Shown in pieces: positions 1 to 41,094 of a stretch of 64,000 bases of DNA. The notes beneath the pieces are model-generated. The model saw nothing but the letters and a program-made list of their open reading frames with translations. It ran no database searches and had not been told where the DNA came from. Both the position numbers and the translations under genes were made by a program. The DNA is from Marsupella aquatica (lineage: Eukaryota > Plantae > Marchantiophyta), in contig OZ316891.1 of the NCBI GenBank assembly GCA_973895155.1, forward strand, positions 27,565,561 through 27,629,560, given 5' to 3'. Within the stretch, counting starts at the first letter, position 1; every line of letters starts with the position of its first letter.

Positions 1-1159
1 CTGGTTTCCATATATATGGTCACTATCGTTCACAGGTGTCACCAGTTGCCAAATCCATCTGTGTCGATATAATCTTTTCAAATGGAATAACAGAATGATT
101 AGTTTCCAGGTTGAATCTTTGTTGAAGTTGTTTCACTAAATTTTCTATTGTGTTAAGTTTATGTACATTTCACCAAACTTTTTAATTGAAGACACTTGGA
201 AATGACTGAGGGGAATGAGAGTCTCAGCACAGGAGCCCCATGAACTGCTCCGGATATACAAAGGACCGGGTGCAGCAAAATTATCAATGATGAATATGCG
301 ACAACGAAAGAGCTAGTATCTTCCATCTGGCAAGCTGAAGACACGCTTCGAGTCTGAGAAAGTGAAGCTCTGCAGTCTCTTTTGATGTGGTCAGCTTTGG
401 TCATTGTCGACATGTGAGGCAGTGCTAAATGATGATCGTCACAACTGAACGAACACCATTCCGTAATTATGAAGAGAAAAGTAAAGTAGGATGTAGCTAC
501 TTAGGAAGATAAGAGGGAGGCATGCGAATTGGAAAAAATTCAATATCGCATACTAGTAGAAACATCTCCGCATGGTCAAACAAGTTTCTCAATACTATTT
601 TATACTAGGTTCCGGAGAATCAAAGAAAACATACACCACTGAAAAAAAAAGTCAAAATCACGGAAAATTTGTCAAAATCGGTCAAAACGAAAGAACGACT
701 CTCAAATTATCAATAAAAGCTGGAATCTCAATTCATTGTGTTGTGACGGAGAAGGTAGACGTTAGTAGGGACTGAATGGCTAAAAGGGCACTAGACACTT
801 GTAAAGCTCAGTCTCAACATTACGAGTGAGTCTCGAACTAACAAAATATACATTTCCCAGTTTCCCCCCTTGAGCGGCTTTTGGAGATACTGGTTGGTGT
901 GCGCATGCGTAATTCGAACTTTTCGTCGCTTTGGAGATCATGCTATATAATGCGTGGCTTTTGACGTCCAGTGAGGCGTGAGCTACTGAGATCCAGGACG
1001 CAGAGTGACCCTTGACCGGCATGTTCACACTTCACAGCCAATCCACGCCCCACATGCTGACAAACATATTGCTGGCATTTGCTGCCCAAGCTATCATCTA
1101 TCACTTACAGATACAATAGGCCATGTCTAAGTATCCACGAAGTTAGTGCATTTGGTGGT

Positions 1160-1330
1160 ATATAAAAGGAGAAGTACATTTCTCACTTTTCCACATTTTT
1201 TTTCTCCTCTAAGGTGAGACTTTGCTTCACAATTTCAGGAAAATGATACTAAAAAATGATACCATCACAATTTCAGGAAAATGATACCTGGTGGATCCAG
1301 GTTTTGTCATGCACAGTGGTGGCTTTAATT
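1160..1330. repeat. Dispersed repeat with TATA-like box, related to 44610-44760 (possible LTR/TE relic)
   Basis: Collinear shared blocks tataaaagg..gaagt, cttttccacatt, ctttgct.cacaa.ttcaggaaa and tggatccaggttt.gtcatg at both loci. Confidence 0.5.
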
Positions 1331-2299
1331 GCAGGCTACTCGTACTTCCCAAGAAAACCAGATATTCTTACAAATAGATGCAGCAAAAAACTGCACCCTT
1401 CCTAACTGTACAAAAACCCAAAACCCTCGGAGGAATAGACAACTACTGAACATGGGAGGTATTGTATAATGTAAGTAAACAAGAATTTTGTAAGCTAGGA
1501 GAGTGTTGTTAGCAACACCACACTGGTTTTCAATTTTTTTGCTTTTTCTCCCTTTTATATTTTTTGGGTTTCTCTATGACTCCAAATGGGTACTAAGTTA
1601 GCTAGCAAAAAGAGGAGTACTAAAAGTGTATCTTAATAACCAGGTTGTTGTAGCAAGGGCAGCTGGATAGAAAAAAAATAGTGTAAAAATTAGGGGTCAT
1701 GGGAAGAAAAATTGACTCGCAAGCTAAAATAACCCTAAACATAGACCAGTTGCCCACCACTTGTAGGAGGGATTAAAATGCCTTTATTGATAGCTAGAGA
1801 CACGTTTCCGTTTGCATTATCTTTGCACTAATAAGTCTAATATACTACTATACCCATCCCATACACTAGAAGATAGAGATTGGGCTAATATTATCATCAA
1901 ACACTTCTACTAAAACTATTTAGAAAATATTTTTTAATGTATTCAATGTATTTAAAATTTTATCAAAATTATACTAATGGGTGTTTATTTAGTTTTTTTC
2001 CAATTTCAAAAATATGGTTATAATTTCCAAAAATCCTTCATGGATTCCACTCAAAACACACTGTAATCTCTTTAGGTCTATGTAAAAGATTACATTGCAG
2101 GCTAATACACACGCTTCTACAACGGGAATGAGCCATACTTTGATGATTATGAGTTCCAATATATTTTTGAGATGTATACAAGTAAATTAGAGAAGGGGGT
2201 GATATGAAAAACACAAGTACAAATATTTTACGAAGGAAGTTTACTCTTTGGCATTATGTTATGCTGAAAAATTCAACCCATATGGTCAAAAATTAGCTG

Positions 2300-2950
2300 C
2301 CACTTCGACCCCCGGTTTGACCTTGCCCGTCAAACTGGCCAAAAATCGTCGGCAAATCGGCAACCCGGCACCCGGGTTCGGGAGCAGTCCGGGCCGGGAC
2401 AAGTTCGGGAGACATTCGGGCCGGGTTCGGGCGAGGTTTGGGGGAGGTCGGGGGAGTTCGGGGGAGTTCAGGCGAGGGGGAGTTCGGGTTCGGGGGAGTC
2501 TGGGCCGGGTTCGGGGGAGTTTGGGCAAGGTTCGGGGGACCGGGAGTTCAGGGTAGGTCGGGGGAGTTCGGGGGAGGGTCGGGGGTGTTTCGGGGGAGTT
2601 TCGGGGGAGTTCGGGGGAGTTCGGGAAGGGTCCGGGTTCGGGTCCGGGGGAGTCCGGGACTCTAAACCCCGCCCTCCTTCCCCCAGCCCCGACCCCAGAC
2701 CCGGCCCCGGCTGGCTGCCACCCCGAACCGGGGTCCGGGGGAGTCCGGGTTCGGGTCTGGGGGAGTCCGGGAAGGGTCCGGGTGAGTTCGGGAGGAGTCC
2801 GGGAAGGGTCCGGGGGAGTCCGGGTGAGTTCGGGAGAATATTGTGGAATATCCGTCAAATTGATCATTTTCGAGCTGTCATTTGACAGTTTGACGTGCTC
2901 GGCAAGCCGTCAACTTGCCCGTCAGGTTAAACCGGGCTTCGACCGAACTG
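2300..2950. repeat. GC-rich element with strand-biased G-rich minisatellite (GGGGAGTTCG-like) and imperfect terminal inverted repeats
   Basis: Many gggggagttc/gggtccgg units 2370-2835; ccggtttgacct (~2312) is inverted against aggttaaaccgg (~2924); flanks are AT-rich. Confidence 0.7.
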
Positions 2951-3907
2951 TAGCTTACCTACAGTAGTACTCTATCATATACTAACACTATAATATGTTT
3001 GAGTATATAAAAATCAAAGTTACTTCGAACTAAACTCAAAATTTGAGAAATGTGTTCCACGGGTTCAAACATGAACCTTGTGGGCGATGGGGGCTTCAAA
3101 TTCGGAGGGCCACACGAGATTCTTAGTTTTTAGATTCGCCAGAAAGAGACACTCCGACGATAGGATACTTGCGCAAATGAATTGTTCTGCGTGTAAGATT
3201 CAGCCTTAATGCAACCGACTCGATGTATATCCCGTATAATGTTTATTCTTTGCTCTTGGAGGTCAGTTCATTCCTGGTTCTAGACTGAGAAACATTTCCG
3301 CTAAACTTAATATGGAAGGCTGCAGACGAGAGGCCACACGTAAGACAATGAGATATTTCTAAACGAATGCTGACTATGCGCGATTGTAGTACGTGCCTCC
3401 ACCTATGCGCGCAACGGATTGGCTCCATTAGACTACCGAGAACTAGCATTCGTCTCGCTACGGTTTGAGTTTTTTTGTTTTGTTTCTGAAAAGTTGGAGG
3501 TCAATGATGAGGTCAATGATGGAGAGAGACAAAACAGCTGCGATTGTTGATTTGGGCCGCCCAAATCACTCTACTCGGATTCTCTATCAATGTTTCCGGA
3601 GAATATGGGGCGCGTGCTGGGACCAACAGGTGATGGTGTGATTCTTGGGAGGACAGCGAGTGACACTATTACAAGCGAATGAGGAGCTAGCATGGGAGGA
3701 GATCTACAGATTGGTTTGCAATTAATCTTCTTAATTAGGAGGTAGATGACCAAGCCACGCATCTTTCTCCAAAAGTTAATTTCTCTCTTAGGGAAGCTGT
3801 TGGAATATTAAATGAGACACTTCTTGGAGTATCTTCCCAAGTCGATCTGTAGAGATTTTAGGTCCTGGACCAGTTATATTGTAGTTTTCTTTCAATCTAA
3901 GTAGTTG

Positions 3908-3992
3908 TGAATAGTGTGGACTGTGAATAGTGTGAACTGTGAATAGTGTGCATCGATCTGTAGAAATCGATTTCTACAGATCTGATCGATGT
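3908..3992. repeat. 16-bp tandem repeat followed by a perfect 28-bp palindrome
   Basis: gtgaatagtgtg(g/a)act x~3, then gatctgtagaaatcgatttctacagatc at 3955-3982 is its own reverse complement. Confidence 0.85.
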
Positions 3993-4197
3993 TGACACTG
4001 TAGTCTTTGAATGTTGAACTATATGCTGTAAACAATGAACTTTAATTGCATGACAATTCTCACAAACGAGGCATCTACAGGACAGTACTATTCAGGATAA
4101 CACTATCTCCAACAAATTAACATGAGTTCAGTTTGGAAACTTTATGAACACCTAATAATAGACAAGTTTCAAGATATCTGCAACTTTGGTTAATTCC

Positions 4198-5330
4198 TTT
4201 TTCTTTTCTTTTTTAAGGGCGCCCGTTTATTCGAGAGGCCACCGCGGCGAAGACCAGCAGGGCACAAAAAAAATAACAAACCCAGAGGGCCAAAGCACAC
4301 AAGAACCACACTGAAATGAGCATATCCACCCAAAGGAAACCACTAACACCCCACACAAAGGATGACATGCAAGAACAAGGGCCGACCACCCAACAGAAGG
4401 CAAGAGCCTTGACACAAAGCACCTCCCAAAAGAGGAGTTGGTTGTCCTCAGACAACAGCAAGTCAGACTCCCCAAAAATGGGACAAAAGGGAGAGCATGG
4501 TCATCGCATATCCCAGTCAATCATAGTAGTGATGTCCCTGAGTGTTCGATTCAACCACCAAGCCTTTTGTACATTGTTAGTACGTTGAAGCTTAGTGTGA
4601 ATAGTTACTGCAGCTCCATGGAAAATGAGATGCAATGGGAACCGAGCAGAGTTAGCTCAAAAAGTCCGTTGGCAACACTCCAACTAGATGCTCTGAATCA
4701 TCGTGTGAATGAGTAGAAGGAAGCCAAGGTTGCGTTTTTGGGACCTCATCGCAGTATCAAACTTGCCAACGAAAGAGCAGCCTGCAGACTTGACCAGACT
4801 AATGCCCACGGCTGTGTACTCAAGTTGCATCCATGGTGGGCAAAGCTAACAGCAATCATAAAACATATGTTCAACCATTTCACTGGCCGCTTTACACACA
4901 GTGCACATGCCATCACTCACGTCCCATATAAGAACACAAGAGTTGGAGAAAAACCCAGTGTGTTCAAAACACCTTCCAAAAATCTAGCTTATTAACAGTA
5001 GGAGAGGATAAACCTTTCCATAGATGGATCCACCCACTCCGCTATAGCACATGAGAATCAAGAGAGACCCAGCGGCGATTGAGTTGTGTAATGGGAGGCA
5101 TAGGCTATTGCAAGATGGTGGCCCAGGTTTTAGTGGGAAGATTCCACCCTTTCTTTACTCCCGTCTGCCATGTCCACATCTAAGCAACTAAGCTAAGCAG
5201 TTACCCCAATGCCTCTGGCTGTTCTAGTGACGGAGGCATTTATGGGGCTTCAATTTGGGTCCTCTCCATTGACGAAGAAGTTAATTAAGTTGCCACAAAA
5301 AATAGACTACCTAACCTATTGTCCCTCATT
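4198..5330 (-). mobile_element. Degenerate 3' end of an L1-type LINE (zf-RVT zinc knuckle, 3' UTR, polyadenylation signal, A-rich tail)
   Basis: Minus strand ~4920-4850 reads VSDGMCTVCKAASEMVEHMFYDC (CxxC..E..H.F..C); AATAAA at 4231-4226 is followed by an A-rich tract 4214-4198; frame broken by stops; 5' boundary approximate. Confidence 0.75.
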
Positions 5331-5562
5331 TCAACTTATATTTGGTGAAAGATAGCAAAAAGAATCTCATTTCATTTCCCAGCTCCATGGGTGGCTAGAG
5401 TCACAACGTAGAAGCTTCACTCTAATCCTTATTCTAACTTCTGGAGATTCTATCAGTACTGTACAACAATGTCAGCCAGATCAGACAAGCTACTGTAGGT
5501 CCTCTAGCTTGTCCTCTTACCTGACAGACAGTGTTAAATCCACGAAGGACCGGACTATGAGA

Positions 5563-6978
5563 TTACGCAACAATGGTGGGCAGCAGCCCCTCTGTGAACT
5601 GCCATAGCAACGAAGATTGCTGCGTCAAAAATGCGGCACCAGTGTAATACGTGTGCCTCTGCCCTTGGAGCCCATAGAGCTCCCGATAGAACCCACCAGC
5701 AATGGCGCTCGCAGGCACATACATCTCAAATGGGATATGGCTCGAGAATGTCGCAAACGATGGCGTCGTGGTGGTGGTCGTCATGTTTACTCGTTGTAGA
5801 CGCAGAAGTGCGGAGATGATGTTCGCTTCCACTTGATCCGCGGAAAGATAATAGGAGCTCCCGTAAAACACATGCGTCAAGTCCGGGACTCCTGATGGGT
5901 AGATTGCATAAGGACCCGGGAGAACGGGCAGATGATAAGGCGTATTCTCGCCAGCGTTGAACACACTGCCATCAATGCCTGCATTGCGGACCAGACTTGT
6001 GTAGTAAAAAGCATTCTGGAATTGGGCGAAGAGGGCAGCCTCCTGCGCGGAGAGATCGAAACCGACGAGGTTGCTGAGCTTGGGAGGGATGCTGACGACG
6101 ATTTTCTTGGCTCGGATGAGCTTGGTGAGTTTGCCGTTCGAGGTCTTGACCAGGACCTTCACATACCCATCTTCGTCAACGCTGCTTCGGTTTATCGCCA
6201 CAACGTGGCTGCTGAGGAGAACGTCGTCTGGGCCCAATACGTCATATGCTTTCTGGTAGACCTCACTGTTGTCTCTGCTGGTCGTAGTGAGGAAGCCGGC
6301 TTGCAAAGAGGTCACGACATCAAGACCGGTCAGCATCATAACATAGAGGGTTGGCTTGGCAAGAAGGTCACCGATCCCCTGAGCATATGTGGACAATAGA
6401 TATACAACGTCTTGGAGAGCGTATTTGGTCACGAATTGGCCAAATGGAAGGAGTAGATCCTCGGGTACTGGTGATGGTAGATCGAAGCCACCGGAGAGGT
6501 ATGGATACTTGGCGAGCTGGGCAGCGTATGCGCCAAGAGCTGCTGTTGGATCTGGAGGTGAAAACGTGGGGAGGATTTTGCCGGTGCTCAAGTCCGCATA
6601 CGTCGTGACTCCTGAAGCCGAAGCGTTTGATATAACGAACGAGACATTCAATCGCGTCAAATAGTTTTTTACAATATCGTTGACGGTCCAGTATAACACA
6701 CCAATATCGATTGGTGCTTTCGTGGCTGGATCAATGTACGTTTCTGTATGTCCGCCCAGGCGGTCCTTTCTCTCCACCACCACAACGCTCTTGCCCATGT
6801 CGTGCAACCGGATTGCAGCGTACGTGCCACTGGACCCGCCTCCGATGACACAAATGTCACGGGTGATGACATCCTGGGCTGGATACTGGCTGCAGTCGAA
6901 GCTGTAGTGCGCAGAAGTGAGGCTCAGCCAAGACACAACGATGAGCACCACAGTATCTCTAGAAAACTGAATGTTCAT
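5563..6978 (-). CDS. Secreted FAD-dependent oxidoreductase / flavin amine oxidase family, fungal-like, intronless (471 aa from ATG 6978)
   Basis: Intact ORF; hydrophobic signal-like N-terminus (VVLIVVSWLSLTSA); Rossmann motif RDICVIGGGSSGTYAA..VVVVERKDRLGGHTET; C-terminal LQGQRHTYYTGAAF..SSLLWQFTE. Confidence 0.9.
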   Translation of the reverse strand: MNIQFSRDTVVLIVVSWLSLTSAHYSFDCSQYPAQDVITRDICVIGGGSSGTYAAIRLHDMGKSVVVVERKDRLGGHTETYIDPATKAPIDIGVLYWTVNDIVKNYLTRLNVSFVISNASASGVTTYADLSTGKILPTFSPPDPTAALGAYAAQLAKYPYLSGGFDLPSPVPEDLLLPFGQFVTKYALQDVVYLLSTYAQGIGDLLAKPTLYVMMLTGLDVVTSLQAGFLTTTSRDNSEVYQKAYDVLGPDDVLLSSHVVAINRSSVDEDGYVKVLVKTSNGKLTKLIRAKKIVVSIPPKLSNLVGFDLSAQEAALFAQFQNAFYYTSLVRNAGIDGSVFNAGENTPYHLPVLPGPYAIYPSGVPDLTHVFYGSSYYLSADQVEANIISALLRLQRVNMTTTTTTPSFATFSSHIPFEMYVPASAIAGGFYRELYGLQGQRHTYYTGAAFLTQQSSLLWQFTEGLLPTIVA

Positions 6979-7897
6979 GATTAATGACGGCGTACCGATA
7001 AACTGATTTCTGCAAATCGATTTCTTCCGACAGATCACTAATGGAGACCCGAGGGCATCAATTGTAGGCTATTGCCAAAGTCAATTTACTCAAAACACAA
7101 TCTAGTCCGAGGTCTACCAAATGAGTGGTACTGGCTAAAATTGCCAATACGTAGGAACCTGCCTCCCTGTTTCCCGAAGTCTCGCTAGAAGTATGCCCTG
7201 AGAGAACCAGCACAACTTTGTGCTGCTCCAGTCAGCCAGTCTATAACAGTCGCGTGAGCTCGCGGAAGGACAGGATGACCTTTTGCTCTCGATATCAAAA
7301 TCCTCAGTGGAGTTAATCAAAATGCACATCACATGGGCAGAAGTGCCACCATTCAGTTACGCGAAACAACTATTCAGCACTACGAGAGTCTCTCAGTGCC
7401 CTATGTGAAAGCGATGGCCACTTGCAAACGAGGTCATCCATCGACTGATGCAAACGAATCCCAAGTCATCTTCTCTTACCCAACTACCGTCTAGAGAACG
7501 CATCGCTTTGAAATTCTCCGGAATGTCCCGAGCAATTGCTCTTCATGATTAGAAGCCTGAAGATGTTGGGCAGCACCAAATCTCTCGTCTGTCACGTACC
7601 CCAGAATCGGAAGAAATCGATCTCATGAAGCGGTACTCTCCTTCGAAATCGGCGAACACTACCACCAAAACTTTTCGATCTTTTCCCTCTTACTCCCTGT
7701 CTGTGCTTACTCAGCACTTCCTCACTCTATCATTCTCAGCAGAATGGCTGGTCTATCTCCTGAGGACGATACACGACTGCAGCAGAAAAGAAATGAGAGC
7801 TGAACGAGCCTGTACTCAAAATTCTACGAACTCTGGATCCTCATGTAGTACATTAATAATCTGCTGCTACATGGTGGACCCCTAGTAACAAAAATTC

Positions 7898-9629
7898 CTA
7901 GCTCCATATACTTGCCTTGCACAAAACATATGGTGAAGAAAAAAGATATCACGTGTTTGCACAAAAGATATTGCGTGAAGAAAAAAGATATCACGTGTTT
8001 GCACAAAAGATATTGCGTGCAGAAAAAAGAATGACACATTGTGACCCTCAAGATATTGTTGTTAAATAAAAGATGTACTCAAGTAAAATGGGTGGTTGCT
8101 CAAAAGATGTCATTGTTCAAAAGATGTCAGTATGCAAGATGTGAGTATGCAAAAGATGTAGTTTACTAAAAATATTGTTCAGCAAAAAAAGTCAATGTGT
8201 AATAAATGAAACAAAAAAAGTCAATGTGTAATAAATGAAGTTGTGCTAAAGATGTAGTTGGAAAAATATAATTGTGCAAAAGATATCTTTGTTAAAAAGA
8301 TTTCATTGTGTAAAATACAGAAAGAGAGCAACAACCACCACCAAAGTTCACTGATTTCTTTTTTTTGTTTTTGTCATGTATATCTTTTTAAACCTTAATA
8401 CCCTCACAGACAAAGAGTAATACACATACTTTTTACAGAAAAGGGCCAAATAGAGTAAAAAAAATAAACAAGAGAGGTCCCAAGTGGACAAAACCAAACG
8501 CAAAAGAAGTGAGCTAAAGAAAACCCCTAAAAACCAAGAAAGAGAAACTAAAAGAAGTGAGCAAAAGGAAACCCCTAAAAACCAAGAAAGAGGAACTAAA
8601 ACTACCGCAAATAGACCAAGGTCCTCATCATACCTACAAATGTGACAAAAAACTAATGGTCTACATCAAGTGTCGAAACTAAATCGGCAAGTGGGACTAG
8701 AATGTCCTCTAGGGGGGCTAGCCGCTGCGGAGTCACACTAGCACCCATTGTCAAAGATTGACGATAAATGGCCCGAGCTTGAGCACGCTATAAGGTGACT
8801 GAATTGCGTTGGCAAAAGTGCGTGGTCAAAATAGATAGCGGGGGTCCGGTGGGACCCATCCAGCCATGAACATACCGAGCAGCTTGGCGAAGAAGCCCGT
8901 CGAACTGATGATGGAGACGCCCAAATATCTCAAGAGCAAGGGACAGGAAGCTATCAGATGAAGCTCGTGCAGCATATTTGGCCTCCTTCGTTGTTGCTGC
9001 TCGTGATGTTGCTGCCCCTGCCGATGTTACGGCTGTCCCAATGATGTCTTGGCGCAATGGGTTTGCCACCACTACATCTGTCAAAGTACGTTGACCCTCA
9101 CTGACCATGGTAAGATCCACCTATAACCGCTGTGATGGAGGACCAGGTAACTCGAGCACCACCTCCCGCCGCGTGCAGACCAAAGAGCCAAAGAGAACCT
9201 GAGCAATCGCATCTCTCACAGCATTGTGAACAAAATGGTTTTGTCGCCCAAACTGCACCGCCGTCCCAGACCCTTTTCTTTTTCCTTCTTTTTCAATACT
9301 TTTTCTTGTCTTGTCTTTTGTCTCATTGATTAGATTGTGCACTATTTTTTATTGATTATGTAATATTTATAATTAAACTACTCTCCTGATGTAGCATTTC
9401 CTATGCATGAATGGTATGGCATGGAGCATAGTATGGCATGGATGGTAGACTAGGAGCATGGTGTAGGATGGAAGGCTTTTTTTGCTTGGAGAAGCGTGTT
9501 CACATCAAACATAATTATTATTTTTCTTATTCCTCTTTTTTTTCCAGTTCCTTTTTCTTTCACTCAAAAGATCTAGTCAAATTTGAATGATGAGCACTTT
9601 AAAAAAAGAGACGCAACCCCTATTATAGT
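7898..9629 (-). mobile_element. Non-autonomous Helitron-like element (AAAGATGT-ladder family) containing a CRE retroelement relic
   Basis: Minus-strand 3' end ttttgtgcaaggcaagtatatggagCTAG (to 7898); 5' end ctataataggggttgcg (from ~9628) matches the heads at 31425, 32773 and 33614; aaagat ladder 7930-8310. Confidence 0.55.
8654..9270 (-). pseudogene. Restriction-like endonuclease C-terminus of a CRE/R2-type non-LTR retrotransposon, with in-frame stops
   Basis: One frame reads HNAVRD..RL*VDL..DVVVANP..KEAKY..FLSLALEIFGRL..SVTL*RAQARAI; stops at 9121-9123 and 8788-8790. Confidence 0.75.
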
Positions 9630-39645: not shown

Positions 39646-41094
39646 ATGAAGAAGAATCATCACCATCACCTCCACAGAGTAGGGAGCAGCACTTCCATCT
39701 CAACAGGTTCCAAAACCATGGCCATGCCACAGCGCTATGTCACGGTCCTGCTAACCTTTGTCTGCACGGCCGTCTGCTACGTTGAGCGCATTGGCTTCTC
39801 CATAGCATACACAGCCGCAGCCAGCGCTGTGGGTGTGGGAGATAGCACCAAGGGCATGCTCCTCTCTGCCTTTTACTACGGCTATGCGAGCTCACAAGTG
39901 CCAGGGGGGTGGGCTGCGCAGCGATTCGGAGGAAGGAGGGTTCTGTTGTGGTCGTTCGTCTTGTGGTCTGTCACTTCAGCCCTGACGCCCACCAATGCGG
40001 CGGATGTCACTGGCTTGATTGTTGCTCGCCTCCTCGTGGGTGTAGCTCAGGGATTCATCTTCCCTTCCATTCACACGGTGCTGGCTCAGTGGGTACCACC
40101 CCATGAGCGCTCTCGATCCGTTTCCCTCACCACTTCTGGGATGTACTTTGGAGCCGCAGCGGGCATGCTCTACCTTCCCAATTTGGTCACCAAGAGCGGA
40201 CCTCGGTCCGTCTTCCTGGCTGAAGCTGTCATGGGTGCTCTTTGGGCGTTGCTGTGGTTACGGTACTCTCAAGACCCTCCTGGCTCAGGGGAGCCTTCCA
40301 AAGTGTCCCCATCTGTAGCGTTTGAGCGAGCAAAGCTGTTGCTTCCAATGCAGGCCGTTACCGTGGATGAGAACGGTGAGGGTCGACGAGATGTCATCAT
40401 CACCGAGAAAAAGAAAGATTTGGACATCATTTCAGACAGGGCAGGCAAGAACAGAGGAGGGATTCCATGGAAGAAGATCATGCTAAGCTGGGCTGTATGG
40501 GCAATTGTGGTCAACAATTTCACCTTTCACTACACTCTTTACGTGTTAATGAACTGGCTGCCCACTTACTTCGACCAAGGTTTGAGAGTGAGCCTGGCCA
40601 AATTGGGAATGGTGAAAGGGCTTCCTTACATTCTCATGTTTGTGTTCTCCAATGTGGGAGGGGTGGTGGCAGATTATCTGATCACCAGGAGAATATACTC
40701 GGTGACGATGACAAGAAAGCTTCTCAACTCATTGGGATTTTTTGTGGCGGCATTCGGATTGGTGCTGATGTCCAGCATGGAGTCTGCAGCAGGAGCTGTG
40801 CTCTGCTCATCGGTTGTCTTGGGAGCTTGCTCGTTTGCCAGAGCCGGTTTTGCAGTCAATCATATGGACATTGCACCAAGATATGCAGGGATTGTGATGG
40901 GAGTGTCGAACACAGCTGGGACAGTGGCAGGCGTCATTGGTGTGGCTGCCACAGGCTGGATCCTGGAGTTTTCTGATGGGGGTTCCTCAGATCTTAACAC
41001 CTGGTCCGTGGTGTTTGCCATTCCTGGGATATTGTCCATCCTAAGTGCCGTGATATTTTGCGTTTTCGCAACCGGGGACAGGATTTTTGATTAA
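39646..41094 (+). CDS. PHT4;6: MFS anion:cation symporter (SLC17-like), PHT4;6/ANTR5-type, intronless; start may be the downstream ATG 39718 or 39724
   Basis: PQRYV..CYVERIGFSIAYT, SQVPGGWAAQ, GVAQGFIFPSIHTVLAQWVPPHERSR, FAVNHMDIAPRYAGIVMGVSNTAGT; multiple TM segments. Confidence 0.93.
   Translation: MKKNHHHHLHRVGSSTSISTGSKTMAMPQRYVTVLLTFVCTAVCYVERIGFSIAYTAAASAVGVGDSTKGMLLSAFYYGYASSQVPGGWAAQRFGGRRVLLWSFVLWSVTSALTPTNAADVTGLIVARLLVGVAQGFIFPSIHTVLAQWVPPHERSRSVSLTTSGMYFGAAAGMLYLPNLVTKSGPRSVFLAEAVMGALWALLWLRYSQDPPGSGEPSKVSPSVAFERAKLLLPMQAVTVDENGEGRRDVIITEKKKDLDIISDRAGKNRGGIPWKKIMLSWAVWAIVVNNFTFHYTLYVLMNWLPTYFDQGLRVSLAKLGMVKGLPYILMFVFSNVGGVVADYLITRRIYSVTMTRKLLNSLGFFVAAFGLVLMSSMESAAGAVLCSSVVLGACSFARAGFAVNHMDIAPRYAGIVMGVSNTAGTVAGVIGVAATGWILEFSDGGSSDLNTWSVVFAIPGILSILSAVIFCVFATGDRIFD

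What the first reader, a model, noticed from the sequence alone, without database searches (positions are those of the whole stretch)
5563..6978. Intact fungal-type secreted flavin oxidase in a plant chromosome: horizontal transfer candidate
Seen: an intronless, uninterrupted 471-aa ORF with signal peptide and FAD-binding motifs, contiguous with intron-containing plant genes and plant-type TE relics. Knowledge, recalled rather than searched: the RDxCxIGGGSSGTYAAIRL..RLGGHTETY start and LQGQRxTYYTGAAF..SSLLWQFTE end resemble filamentous-ascomycete secondary-metabolism oxidases (CpaO beta-cyclopiazonate dehydrogenase / DbaF-like), not plant polyamine oxidases. Inference: a fungus-to-plant transfer kept intact while surrounding DNA decays, possibly acting in apoplastic defence, detoxification or specialised metabolism. 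This is the best candidate for novel biology in the window.
Basis: partly seen in the sequence, partly recalled or inferred. Interest (0 to 1): 0.85.

Follow-up and report, generated by a model that had tools for sequence, protein, structure and literature searches.

The report
Fungal-derived flavin oxidase in a liverwort
A plant genome, likely a leafy liverwort's, carries an intact gene for a predicted secreted flavin enzyme that it shares with another liverwort and with peat mosses and that likely came from a sac fungus long ago; such transfers are already known in these plants, and what this enzyme acts on is untested.

Summary
The ORF is real (5563-6978, minus strand, 471 aa). It belongs to the CpaO/OblC flavin-oxidase subfamily: PDB CpaO E 7e-75, model TM 0.85-0.92, and the covalent-FAD histidine is kept (His414). 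Most CpaO substrate anchors differ, so it is not CpaO itself. The host is likely a leafy liverwort (neighbour gene 89% to Calypogeia). It is not a contaminant: contigs sit at flank depth, and a second organism label carries the gene open, about 97% identical. The transfer is old. Calypogeia fissa (64%) and Sphagnum (55-59%, several copies) have it too. AU tests reject a plant-plus-actinobacteria grouping (p 0.001-0.02). One bryophyte clade is the best tree, but two transfers are not rejected (p 0.27-0.41). dN/dS is about 0.85 (CI 0.4-1.9), yet changes avoid conserved columns and are conservative. This scan found the family before in Sphagnum, and fungal transfers into bryophytes are published in bulk. 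Verdict: a new member of a known kind; substrate untested.

The parts
5563..6978 (-). Uninterrupted ORF, 471 aa, CpaO/OblC-subfamily flavin oxidase
6910..6978 (-). Predicted Sec signal peptide, residues 1-23 (cleavage after T-S-A)
   Evidence: hydropathy; same SWLSLTSA motif in Calypogeia P0003; heuristic only
6772..6843 (-). FAD-binding GxGxxG(x)17E motif, G46-E69
   Evidence: aligned to CpaO G13-E36; Gly invariant in 120 of 120 homologues
5737..5739 (-). His414, counterpart of CpaO His373 that carries the covalent FAD
   Evidence: alignment; His in 120 of 120 homologues; role from PMC13003489
5614..5628 (-). Pocket segment L451-T-Q453-Q454-S455. The family consensus is H-T-H-D-S; it aligns to CpaO D412/Y413/S414 and differs in each of the three liverwort-clade copies
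5126..7962 (.). Single-copy island holding the gene and its upstream region, bounded by host repeats
   Evidence: X1 contig 5126-7962, 0 differences, depth 15.7; X4 contig 5529-7881
4204..5137 (.). Moderately repeated host sequence 3' of the gene
   Evidence: summed depth 146-170 against 15.7 in X1
7940..9340 (.). High-copy host repeat 5' of the gene
   Evidence: summed depth up to about 16,000 against 15.7 in X1

Best explanation
This is an intact liverwort-clade nuclear gene, likely acquired long ago from an ascomycete fungus, for a predicted secreted CpaO/OblC-type oxidase that would bind FAD covalently at His414, take a hydride from a hydrophobic small molecule and pass the electrons to O2, releasing H2O2. 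Shown here: the open frame, the fold, the conserved FAD residues, presence at host depth in two organism labels, and relatives in Calypogeia and Sphagnum. Inferred from the family: the covalent flavin, hydride transfer and H2O2 (CpaO, PMC13003489), and C-H dehydrogenation of an isoprenoid side chain (OblC, PMC8836403). Inferred from anatomy: entry into the secretory pathway, so the apoplast or, in liverworts, the oil body, which forms by redirected secretion (PMC7708844). Most likely substrate class (my estimate about 45%): a terpenoid or prenylated aromatic, the plant's own or a microbe's, in chemical defence. It is not beta-cyclopiazonate. One acquisition shared by liverworts and Sphagnum is slightly favoured over two separate ones (about 55:45).
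For: Family: best solved relative is CpaO, E 7e-75, against 3e-9 for the next family; the model (pLDDT 82.8) matches 9kp8 at TM 0.85/0.92. G46/G48/G51/E69, Y325 and H414 are kept. Host linkage: the X1 contig over the gene has depth 15.7, against 14.3-18.6 for five other exact contigs within 1-8447. X4 (other organism label, other study) has 58.7 over the gene, against 54.4 and 58.1 for unique flanks; X3 has 104-138 against 85-102. Homologues lie on Calypogeia scaffolds of 3.1 and 10.7 Mb and Sphagnum chromosomes of 17-25 Mb. Donor: AU rejects liverwort+actinobacteria (p 0.004; mixture model 0.0008), bryophytes+actinobacteria (0.023; 0.008) and bryophytes+all bacterial-type rows (0.010; 0.009). 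Liverwort-invariant residues side with fungal-type rows against actinobacteria in 10 columns, and the reverse in 1. Constraint: no stop or indel listed in the CDS in organism B. 3 of 27 changed codons fall in the 170 of 471 columns that are at least 90% conserved (p 0.004; mature protein only p 0.009). 17 of 27 changes are conservative against 29% expected (p 0.0003).
Against: dN/dS between the window and organism B is 0.85 (0.97-1.10 with transition weighting; 95% CI about 0.4-1.9), from 40 of 45 listed differences, so overall purifying selection is not shown. The window departs from 24 positions that are at least 85% conserved in the family, including the D at 454 (98%). No contig bridges the gene to an ordinary plant gene, and X1 may be the assembly's source. 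The tree backbone is weak: the bryophyte clade has SH-aLRT 83 / UFBoot 76, and two other trees separated liverworts from Sphagnum. The trees are unrooted. All-bacteria monophyly is not rejected (p 0.21-0.33), so a bacterial origin of the whole subfamily stays open. The substrate is an inference from two fungal enzymes; CpaO is only 35% identical and OblC was not aligned.
Confidence: 0.72

Rival explanations
1. The gene is an old horizontal acquisition but is now under relaxed selection in this lineage, on its way to becoming a pseudogene.
For: dN/dS about 0.85-1.1. Loss of near-invariant residues such as K215M, D454Q and F107L. The absence of stops among 40 changes is weak evidence, since only about 3% of changes would give a stop. 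Derived changes split evenly between the two lineages, 8 and 8, with 11 unresolved.
Against: Changes avoid conserved columns (p 0.004-0.009) and are conservative (p 0.0003). No indel is listed in 1416 bp of CDS, against 24 gap letters in the 821 bp upstream and a 2-bp gap just past the stop. All FAD-binding residues checked by motif are intact.
Confidence: 0.13
2. The donor was an actinobacterium (Micromonosporaceae/Promicromonospora type), not a fungus.
For: Actinobacterial homologues are 57-59% identical, as close as the named fungi at 53-57%. 12 of 12 GTDB loci found are actinobacterial, although the patterns came from an actinobacterial alignment. The gene has no intron in its CDS.
Against: AU rejects all three plant+bacteria groupings under both models. 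Diagnostic columns are 10 to 1 for fungal-type rows. The plant signal peptides are short Sec-type ones and lack the TRKD-type leader of the actinobacterial proteins.
Confidence: 0.08
3. The gene was inherited vertically from an early eukaryote and lost in most plants.
For: The trees are unrooted. A chytrid (Zopfochytrium) has a distant member, so the family is old in fungi. Only the best 120 of 985 and of 959 hits were visible.
Against: The plant proteins are 53-57% identical to named Pezizomycotina but 35% to the Aspergillus paralogue CpaO, so they diverged inside the fungal paralogue radiation. No other named plant or alga appears in the rows shown, though Marchantia, Riccia, Physcomitrium and vascular plants are in the database.
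Confidence: 0.04
4. The stretch is DNA of a fungal endophyte, misjoined into the plant assembly.
For: No single contig spans from the gene to a plant gene; repeats break the contigs on both sides.
Against: Depth equals the flanks in runs of two organism labels. The second label carries the homologous upstream region and downstream end. The closest relatives are a liverwort protein and an unnamed 82% protein, joined at 100/100, not a fungus.
Confidence: 0.03

Closest known systems
CpaO, beta-cyclopiazonate dehydrogenase of Aspergillus oryzae (PDB 9kp8, 9vex; PMC13003489, text parts 1-3 of 5 read)
   Same: Fold (TM 0.85/0.92), 35% identity, GxGxxG(x)17E motif, covalent-FAD His (373 = 414), gate Tyr (283 = 325), Ser414 = Ser455, N-glycosylation sequons.
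   Different: Substrate contacts H165, Y181, Y194, W317, D412 and Y413 are Y198, L216, F229, Y357, Q453 and Q454. The three CpaO glycosylation Asn are not at the same positions (own sequons at 111, 118, 263, 398). No cpaS/cpaD-like gene was seen among the ORFs scanned. It lies in a plant.
OblC, ophiobolin C16-C17 dehydrogenase (PMC8836403, passages read; clusters with CpaO in the network of PMC13003489)
   Same: Same subfamily according to that paper; shows that members can dehydrogenate a terpenoid side chain and can lie outside a gene cluster.
   Different: Not aligned here; identity to the window protein is unknown; fungal.
Sphagnum multi-copy family (e.g. KAH8954829.1, KAH9537522.1) and Calypogeia fissa CAM6128149.1, all annotated as hypothetical or unnamed
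   Same: 55-59% (Sphagnum) and 64% (Calypogeia) identical, full length, predicted signal peptide, His414 kept. The liverwort rows share 6 rare columns with Sphagnum.
   Different: Sphagnum keeps the family HTHDSS pocket motif and has several copies. The window copy reads LTQQSS, and no second copy at 80% or more DNA identity was laid in X1 or X4.
Published fungus-to-bryophyte transfers (YANB, EUPF, RDS1, FB lectin, MTPSL; PMC12513842 section 8 and passages; PMC12890914 passages)
   Same: Same kind of event: fungal secondary-metabolism genes kept in liverworts and mosses, with few introns, often in regions rich in LTR elements.
   Different: This family is not named in the main text seen ('oxidase', 'oxidoreductase' and 'FAD': 0 occurrences in PMC12513842). 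Its HGT spreadsheet could not be read and may list it.

Membership tests
CpaO subfamily of flavin-dependent amine oxidases | GxGxxG(x)17E FAD-binding motif | tested here: met
   G46-x-G48-x-x-G51, E69
CpaO subfamily of flavin-dependent amine oxidases | His at the position of His373 (absent from other FAO subfamilies) | tested here: met
   His414 in FSSHIP; His in 120 of 120 homologues
CpaO subfamily of flavin-dependent amine oxidases | FAD actually bound covalently (8-alpha-N1-histidyl) | not testable with these tools
   needs purified protein
CpaO subfamily of flavin-dependent amine oxidases | CpaO fold over all three domains, closer than to MAO/PAO/LAAO | tested here: met
   Foldseek 9kp8 TM 0.85/0.92, E 1e-41; next PAI 2b9w 0.74/0.81; monoamine oxidases about 0.6
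CpaO subfamily of flavin-dependent amine oxidases | Secretory, N-glycosylated protein | tested here: inconclusive
   hydrophobic leader and four sequons; no SignalP run, no localisation data
CpaO proper (beta-cyclopiazonate cyclase) | Substrate anchors His165, Trp317, Asp412, Tyr413, Tyr194 | tested here: not met
   Y198, Y357, Q453, Q454, F229
CpaO proper (beta-cyclopiazonate cyclase) | Clustered with PKS-NRPS cpaS and prenyltransferase cpaD | tested here: not met
   none among the 28 ORFs of at least 100 aa listed or the 21 frames scanned with Pfam; genes split into short exons could be missed
Fungus-to-bryophyte horizontal transfer | Part of the host genome, not a contaminant | tested here: met
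   host-level depth in two organism labels; homologues on Mb-scale plant scaffolds; no long-read bridge available
Fungus-to-bryophyte horizontal transfer | Nested in the donor group with strong support | tested here: inconclusive
   bacterial groupings rejected, but the backbone is weak and unrooted, and no fungal sister is identified
Fungus-to-bryophyte horizontal transfer | Patchy in plants | tested here: met
   only Calypogeia and Sphagnum are named among plants in the 120 rows shown of each search; lower-ranked hits were not visible
Plant polyamine/amine oxidases (vertical FAO) | Full-length similarity to PAO/MAO-type oxidases | tested here: not met
   amine oxidases match only the first about 60 residues of the FAD motif, E 3e-9 or weaker

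The most novel reading that the evidence does not exclude
A covalent-flavin oxidase of fungal secondary metabolism entered the common ancestor of mosses and liverworts once, or passed between them, and survives in leafy liverworts and Sphagnum. In leafy liverworts its pocket has been retooled, under diversifying selection, to desaturate or oxidatively cyclise oil-body terpenoids or prenylated aromatics. It would be the first plant enzyme of the CpaO class and a tailoring partner for the fungal-derived terpene synthases.
Probability: 0.15. Interest if true: 0.7.

Novelty: new member of a known kind. Interest (0 to 1): 0.4.

Why it matters
It extends a newly defined enzyme subfamily (CpaO, described in 2026) to leafy liverworts. 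It also links the Sphagnum family that this scan had already noted to a second bryophyte lineage, which raises the question of one ancient transfer or repeated capture of the same fungal gene. Liverworts make many terpenoids whose tailoring enzymes are largely unassigned (own knowledge), so a secreted hydride-abstracting oxidase with a shifting pocket is a cheap candidate to assay. As a type of event it is ordinary: bryophyte species average 229 transferred gene families (PMC12513842).

Tried and rejected
Expression: no RNA holder listed, which is no evidence either way. No whole genome is held for this window, so copy number and synteny could not be searched. The protein atlas gave no answer. 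A GTDB scan with the single protein found 0 relatives among 29 pattern matches; the actinobacterial alignment found 12 of 39. No second copy or relic of the oxidase lies in the window (tblastn). No co-transferred fungal gene was found in 14 flank frames. No informative repeat structure such as terminal repeats borders the gene. GC3 (0.60, the same as the host MFS gene) does not discriminate. The CDS (2.8%) differs less than the upstream flank (6.6%, p 4e-5), but synonymous sites are also at about 3%, so the flank is not a clean neutral yardstick. Clustering of changes near pocket residues is borderline and post hoc (p 0.04-0.11) and is not relied on. Of 20 mostly unnamed tree neighbours looked up, 4 got an organism name: three Leotiomycetes and one chytrid. 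Literature searches showed no paper on this family in plants by title or abstract start. 'beta-cyclopiazonate dehydrogenase' occurs in 4 papers, all on fungi. Sphagnum locus tags gave 29 papers, of which the 15 listed were on soybean or other legumes. Supplements of PMC12513842 (HGT tables) were too large to read, and Ma et al. 2022 was not read; either may already list the family. DbaF: one paper listed, not read, link untested. No complex prediction was run, since CpaO is a monomer and no partner is claimed.

Full report
Observation. Pfam gives Amino_oxidase (E 2e-9) and NAD_binding_8. Residues about 8-20 are hydrophobic and end in T-S-A|H, a likely signal peptide by heuristic, and there are four N-glycosylation sequons.

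Family. The best solved relative is Aspergillus CpaO (9kp8/9vex, E 7e-75); ordinary amine oxidases match only the FAD motif. An AlphaFold2 model (17-row alignment, pLDDT 82.8) matches 9kp8 at TM 0.85/0.92 and 35% identity. The CpaO paper (PMC13003489; parts 1-3 of 5 read) defines a new subfamily with OblC, marked by FAD covalently bound to His373, and shows hydride abstraction with 1:1 H2O2 release. Mapped through the alignment, the window keeps the GxGxxG(x)17E motif, His414 (= His373; His in 120 of 120 homologues), Tyr325 (= Tyr283) and Ser455. It replaces H165, Y181, Y194, W317, D412 and Y413. So it works like CpaO chemically, by inference, but is not the cyclopiazonate cyclase. OblC dehydrogenates C16-C17 of the sesterterpenoid ophiobolin (PMC8836403, passages); I did not align it.

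Host. The MFS gene at 39646-41094 is 89% identical to Calypogeia fissa, 76% to Marchantia paleacea and 68% to Physcomitrium, so the host is likely a leafy liverwort. The nearest plant gene recognised is about 21 kb from the oxidase.

Contamination test. Five public runs from three studies hold the stretch, under two organism labels; all are contigs. In X1, which may be the assembly's source, one exact contig spans 5126-7962 at depth 15.7, while five other exact contigs within 1-8447 have 14.3-18.6. In X4 (organism B, another study), one contig spans 5529-7881 at 58.7, with unique flanks at 54.4 and 58.1; X3 has 104-138 against 85-102. X5, a third study, covers 22 of 30 bins at low depth. Contigs break at host repeats on both sides, so no piece bridges to a plant gene. 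Together with homologues on Mb-scale Calypogeia scaffolds and Sphagnum chromosomes, this makes an endophyte chimera very unlikely.

Distribution. One search found 985 homologues and showed 120, of which 10 carry an organism name: Calypogeia fissa 64%; Sphagnum fallax and S. magellanicum 56-57%; five Pezizomycotina (Glutinoglossum, Geoglossum, Chaenotheca, Venustampulla, Schaereria) 53-57%; two actinobacteria 57%. The top hit is an unnamed 82% protein. Cluster look-ups show several Sphagnum loci on different chromosomes in five species. A liverwort profile (959 hits, 120 shown) added a second, partial Calypogeia copy (95% to the first), Talaromyces and Chlorociboria, and ranked Sphagnum clusters directly after the liverwort rows. 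No other named plant or alga appeared in the rows shown; lower ranks were not visible. GTDB gave 12 loci, all actinobacterial, with actinobacteria-derived patterns. At 50% clustering, 657 representatives score E below 1e-30, so the family is large and mostly unnamed.

Phylogeny. The window, the 82% protein and Calypogeia form a clade at 100/100. The backbone is weak. FastTree (191 rows) and one IQ-TREE search with signal peptides included (50 rows) separated liverworts from Sphagnum. Forcing them together, however, gave a likelihood 6.3 units higher, and a 40-row alignment trimmed to the mature domain joined them freely (SH-aLRT 83, UFBoot 76). The 40 rows were chosen by me to span the clades: 13 with names from the protein searches, plus GTDB loci and unnamed rows. 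AU tests on six topologies under LG+F+G4 and LG+C20 PMSF gave: one bryophyte clade best; Sphagnum apart p 0.27/0.41; all bacteria together p 0.21/0.33; liverwort+actinobacteria p 0.004/0.0008; bryophytes+actinobacteria p 0.023/0.008; bryophytes+all bacterial-type rows p 0.010/0.009. Constrained searches were shorter than the free one, which can exaggerate rejection. Two long plant stems could also attract each other. Liverwort-invariant residues match Sphagnum alone in 6 columns, fungal-type rows against actinobacteria in 10, and the reverse in 1. I conclude a fungal donor is likely, no fungal sister is identified, and the number of transfers is open.

Selection. Organism B differs at 40 listed CDS positions (45 in the laid stretch, 5 not shown), with no stop and no listed CDS indel. 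Counting gives 29 nonsynonymous and 11 synonymous changes, dN/dS 0.85 (0.97-1.10 with transition weighting; CI about 0.4-1.9). This is against a plain purifying-selection reading. Yet only 3 of 27 changed codons fall in columns at least 90% conserved (170 of 471; p 0.004), and 17 of 27 are conservative against 29% expected (p 0.0003). The best reading is a constrained core with fast-changing variable sites. The three liverwort-clade copies each read differently at the pocket motif (LTQQSS, QTHSSA, HTQDSA against the family's HTHDSS), which suggests a shift of substrate or relaxed constraint.

Mechanism. Likely route: secretion, N-glycosylation, covalent FAD at His414, hydride abstraction from a hydrophobic substrate, and reoxidation by O2 to give H2O2. 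The liverwort oil body forms by redirected secretion and limits herbivory (PMC7708844, abstract), and liverwort terpene synthases of fungal origin are tied to defence (PMC12890914, passages). A terpenoid or prenyl-aromatic substrate in defence is therefore my preferred guess. Sphagnum lacks oil bodies (own knowledge) yet expanded the family, which argues for a more general apoplastic role.

Novelty. Fungus-to-bryophyte transfer is well documented: 1,809 transferred families across 49 streptophytes, including fungal secondary-metabolism genes in liverworts (PMC12513842, section 8 and passages; its data tables could not be read). A review's passages (PMC12448838) do not mention this family. Two earlier notes of this scan describe the same family in Sphagnum; they are AI notes and not independent support. 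What this window adds is the leafy-liverwort branch, the possible shared origin with Sphagnum, the actinobacterial members and the fast-changing pocket. Verdict: a real, old, likely fungal acquisition; new member of a known kind; interest 0.4.

Noticed in passing
L001-L012; P0055, P0025, P0016: A tight actinobacterial clade (Micromonosporaceae, Kineosporiaceae, Promicromonospora) sits among fungal-type rows, with a TRKD leader resembling a Tat signal that also resembles some fungal signal peptides (MGLNWRDVLKL). It may be a fungus-to-bacterium transfer or the source of the fungal subfamily; bacterial monophyly is not rejected.
   Followed up: partly
L003 1162-13136: In Mangrovihabitans the oxidase lies among ORFs that look by eye like surface-polysaccharide and sialic/pseudaminic-acid genes and a LuxE/LuxC-like pair (labels recalled, not searched).
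   Followed up: no
window 5456-5556: Organism B appears to lack about 75 bp just 3' of the gene (its loose end matches window 5430-5455) and has a 2-bp gap at 5556.
   Followed up: partly
window 2286-2900: G-rich degenerate tandem array of 10-11-bp units (GGGGGAGTTC-like), repeated elsewhere in the genome by depth; it gives a spurious Pro-rich ORF.
   Followed up: no
window 39646-41094: Uninterrupted PHT4/anion transporter 5-like MFS gene, 89% identical to Calypogeia fissa; used to place the host.
   Followed up: yes
window 8407-9340: Very high-copy repeat (about 1000-fold single-copy depth in X1) with no Pfam match at cut-off in two frames tested; possibly a non-autonomous element or LTR.
   Followed up: partly
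P0390: A chytrid (Zopfochytrium polystomum) has a distant member of the family, so it is not confined to Pezizomycotina.
   Followed up: no
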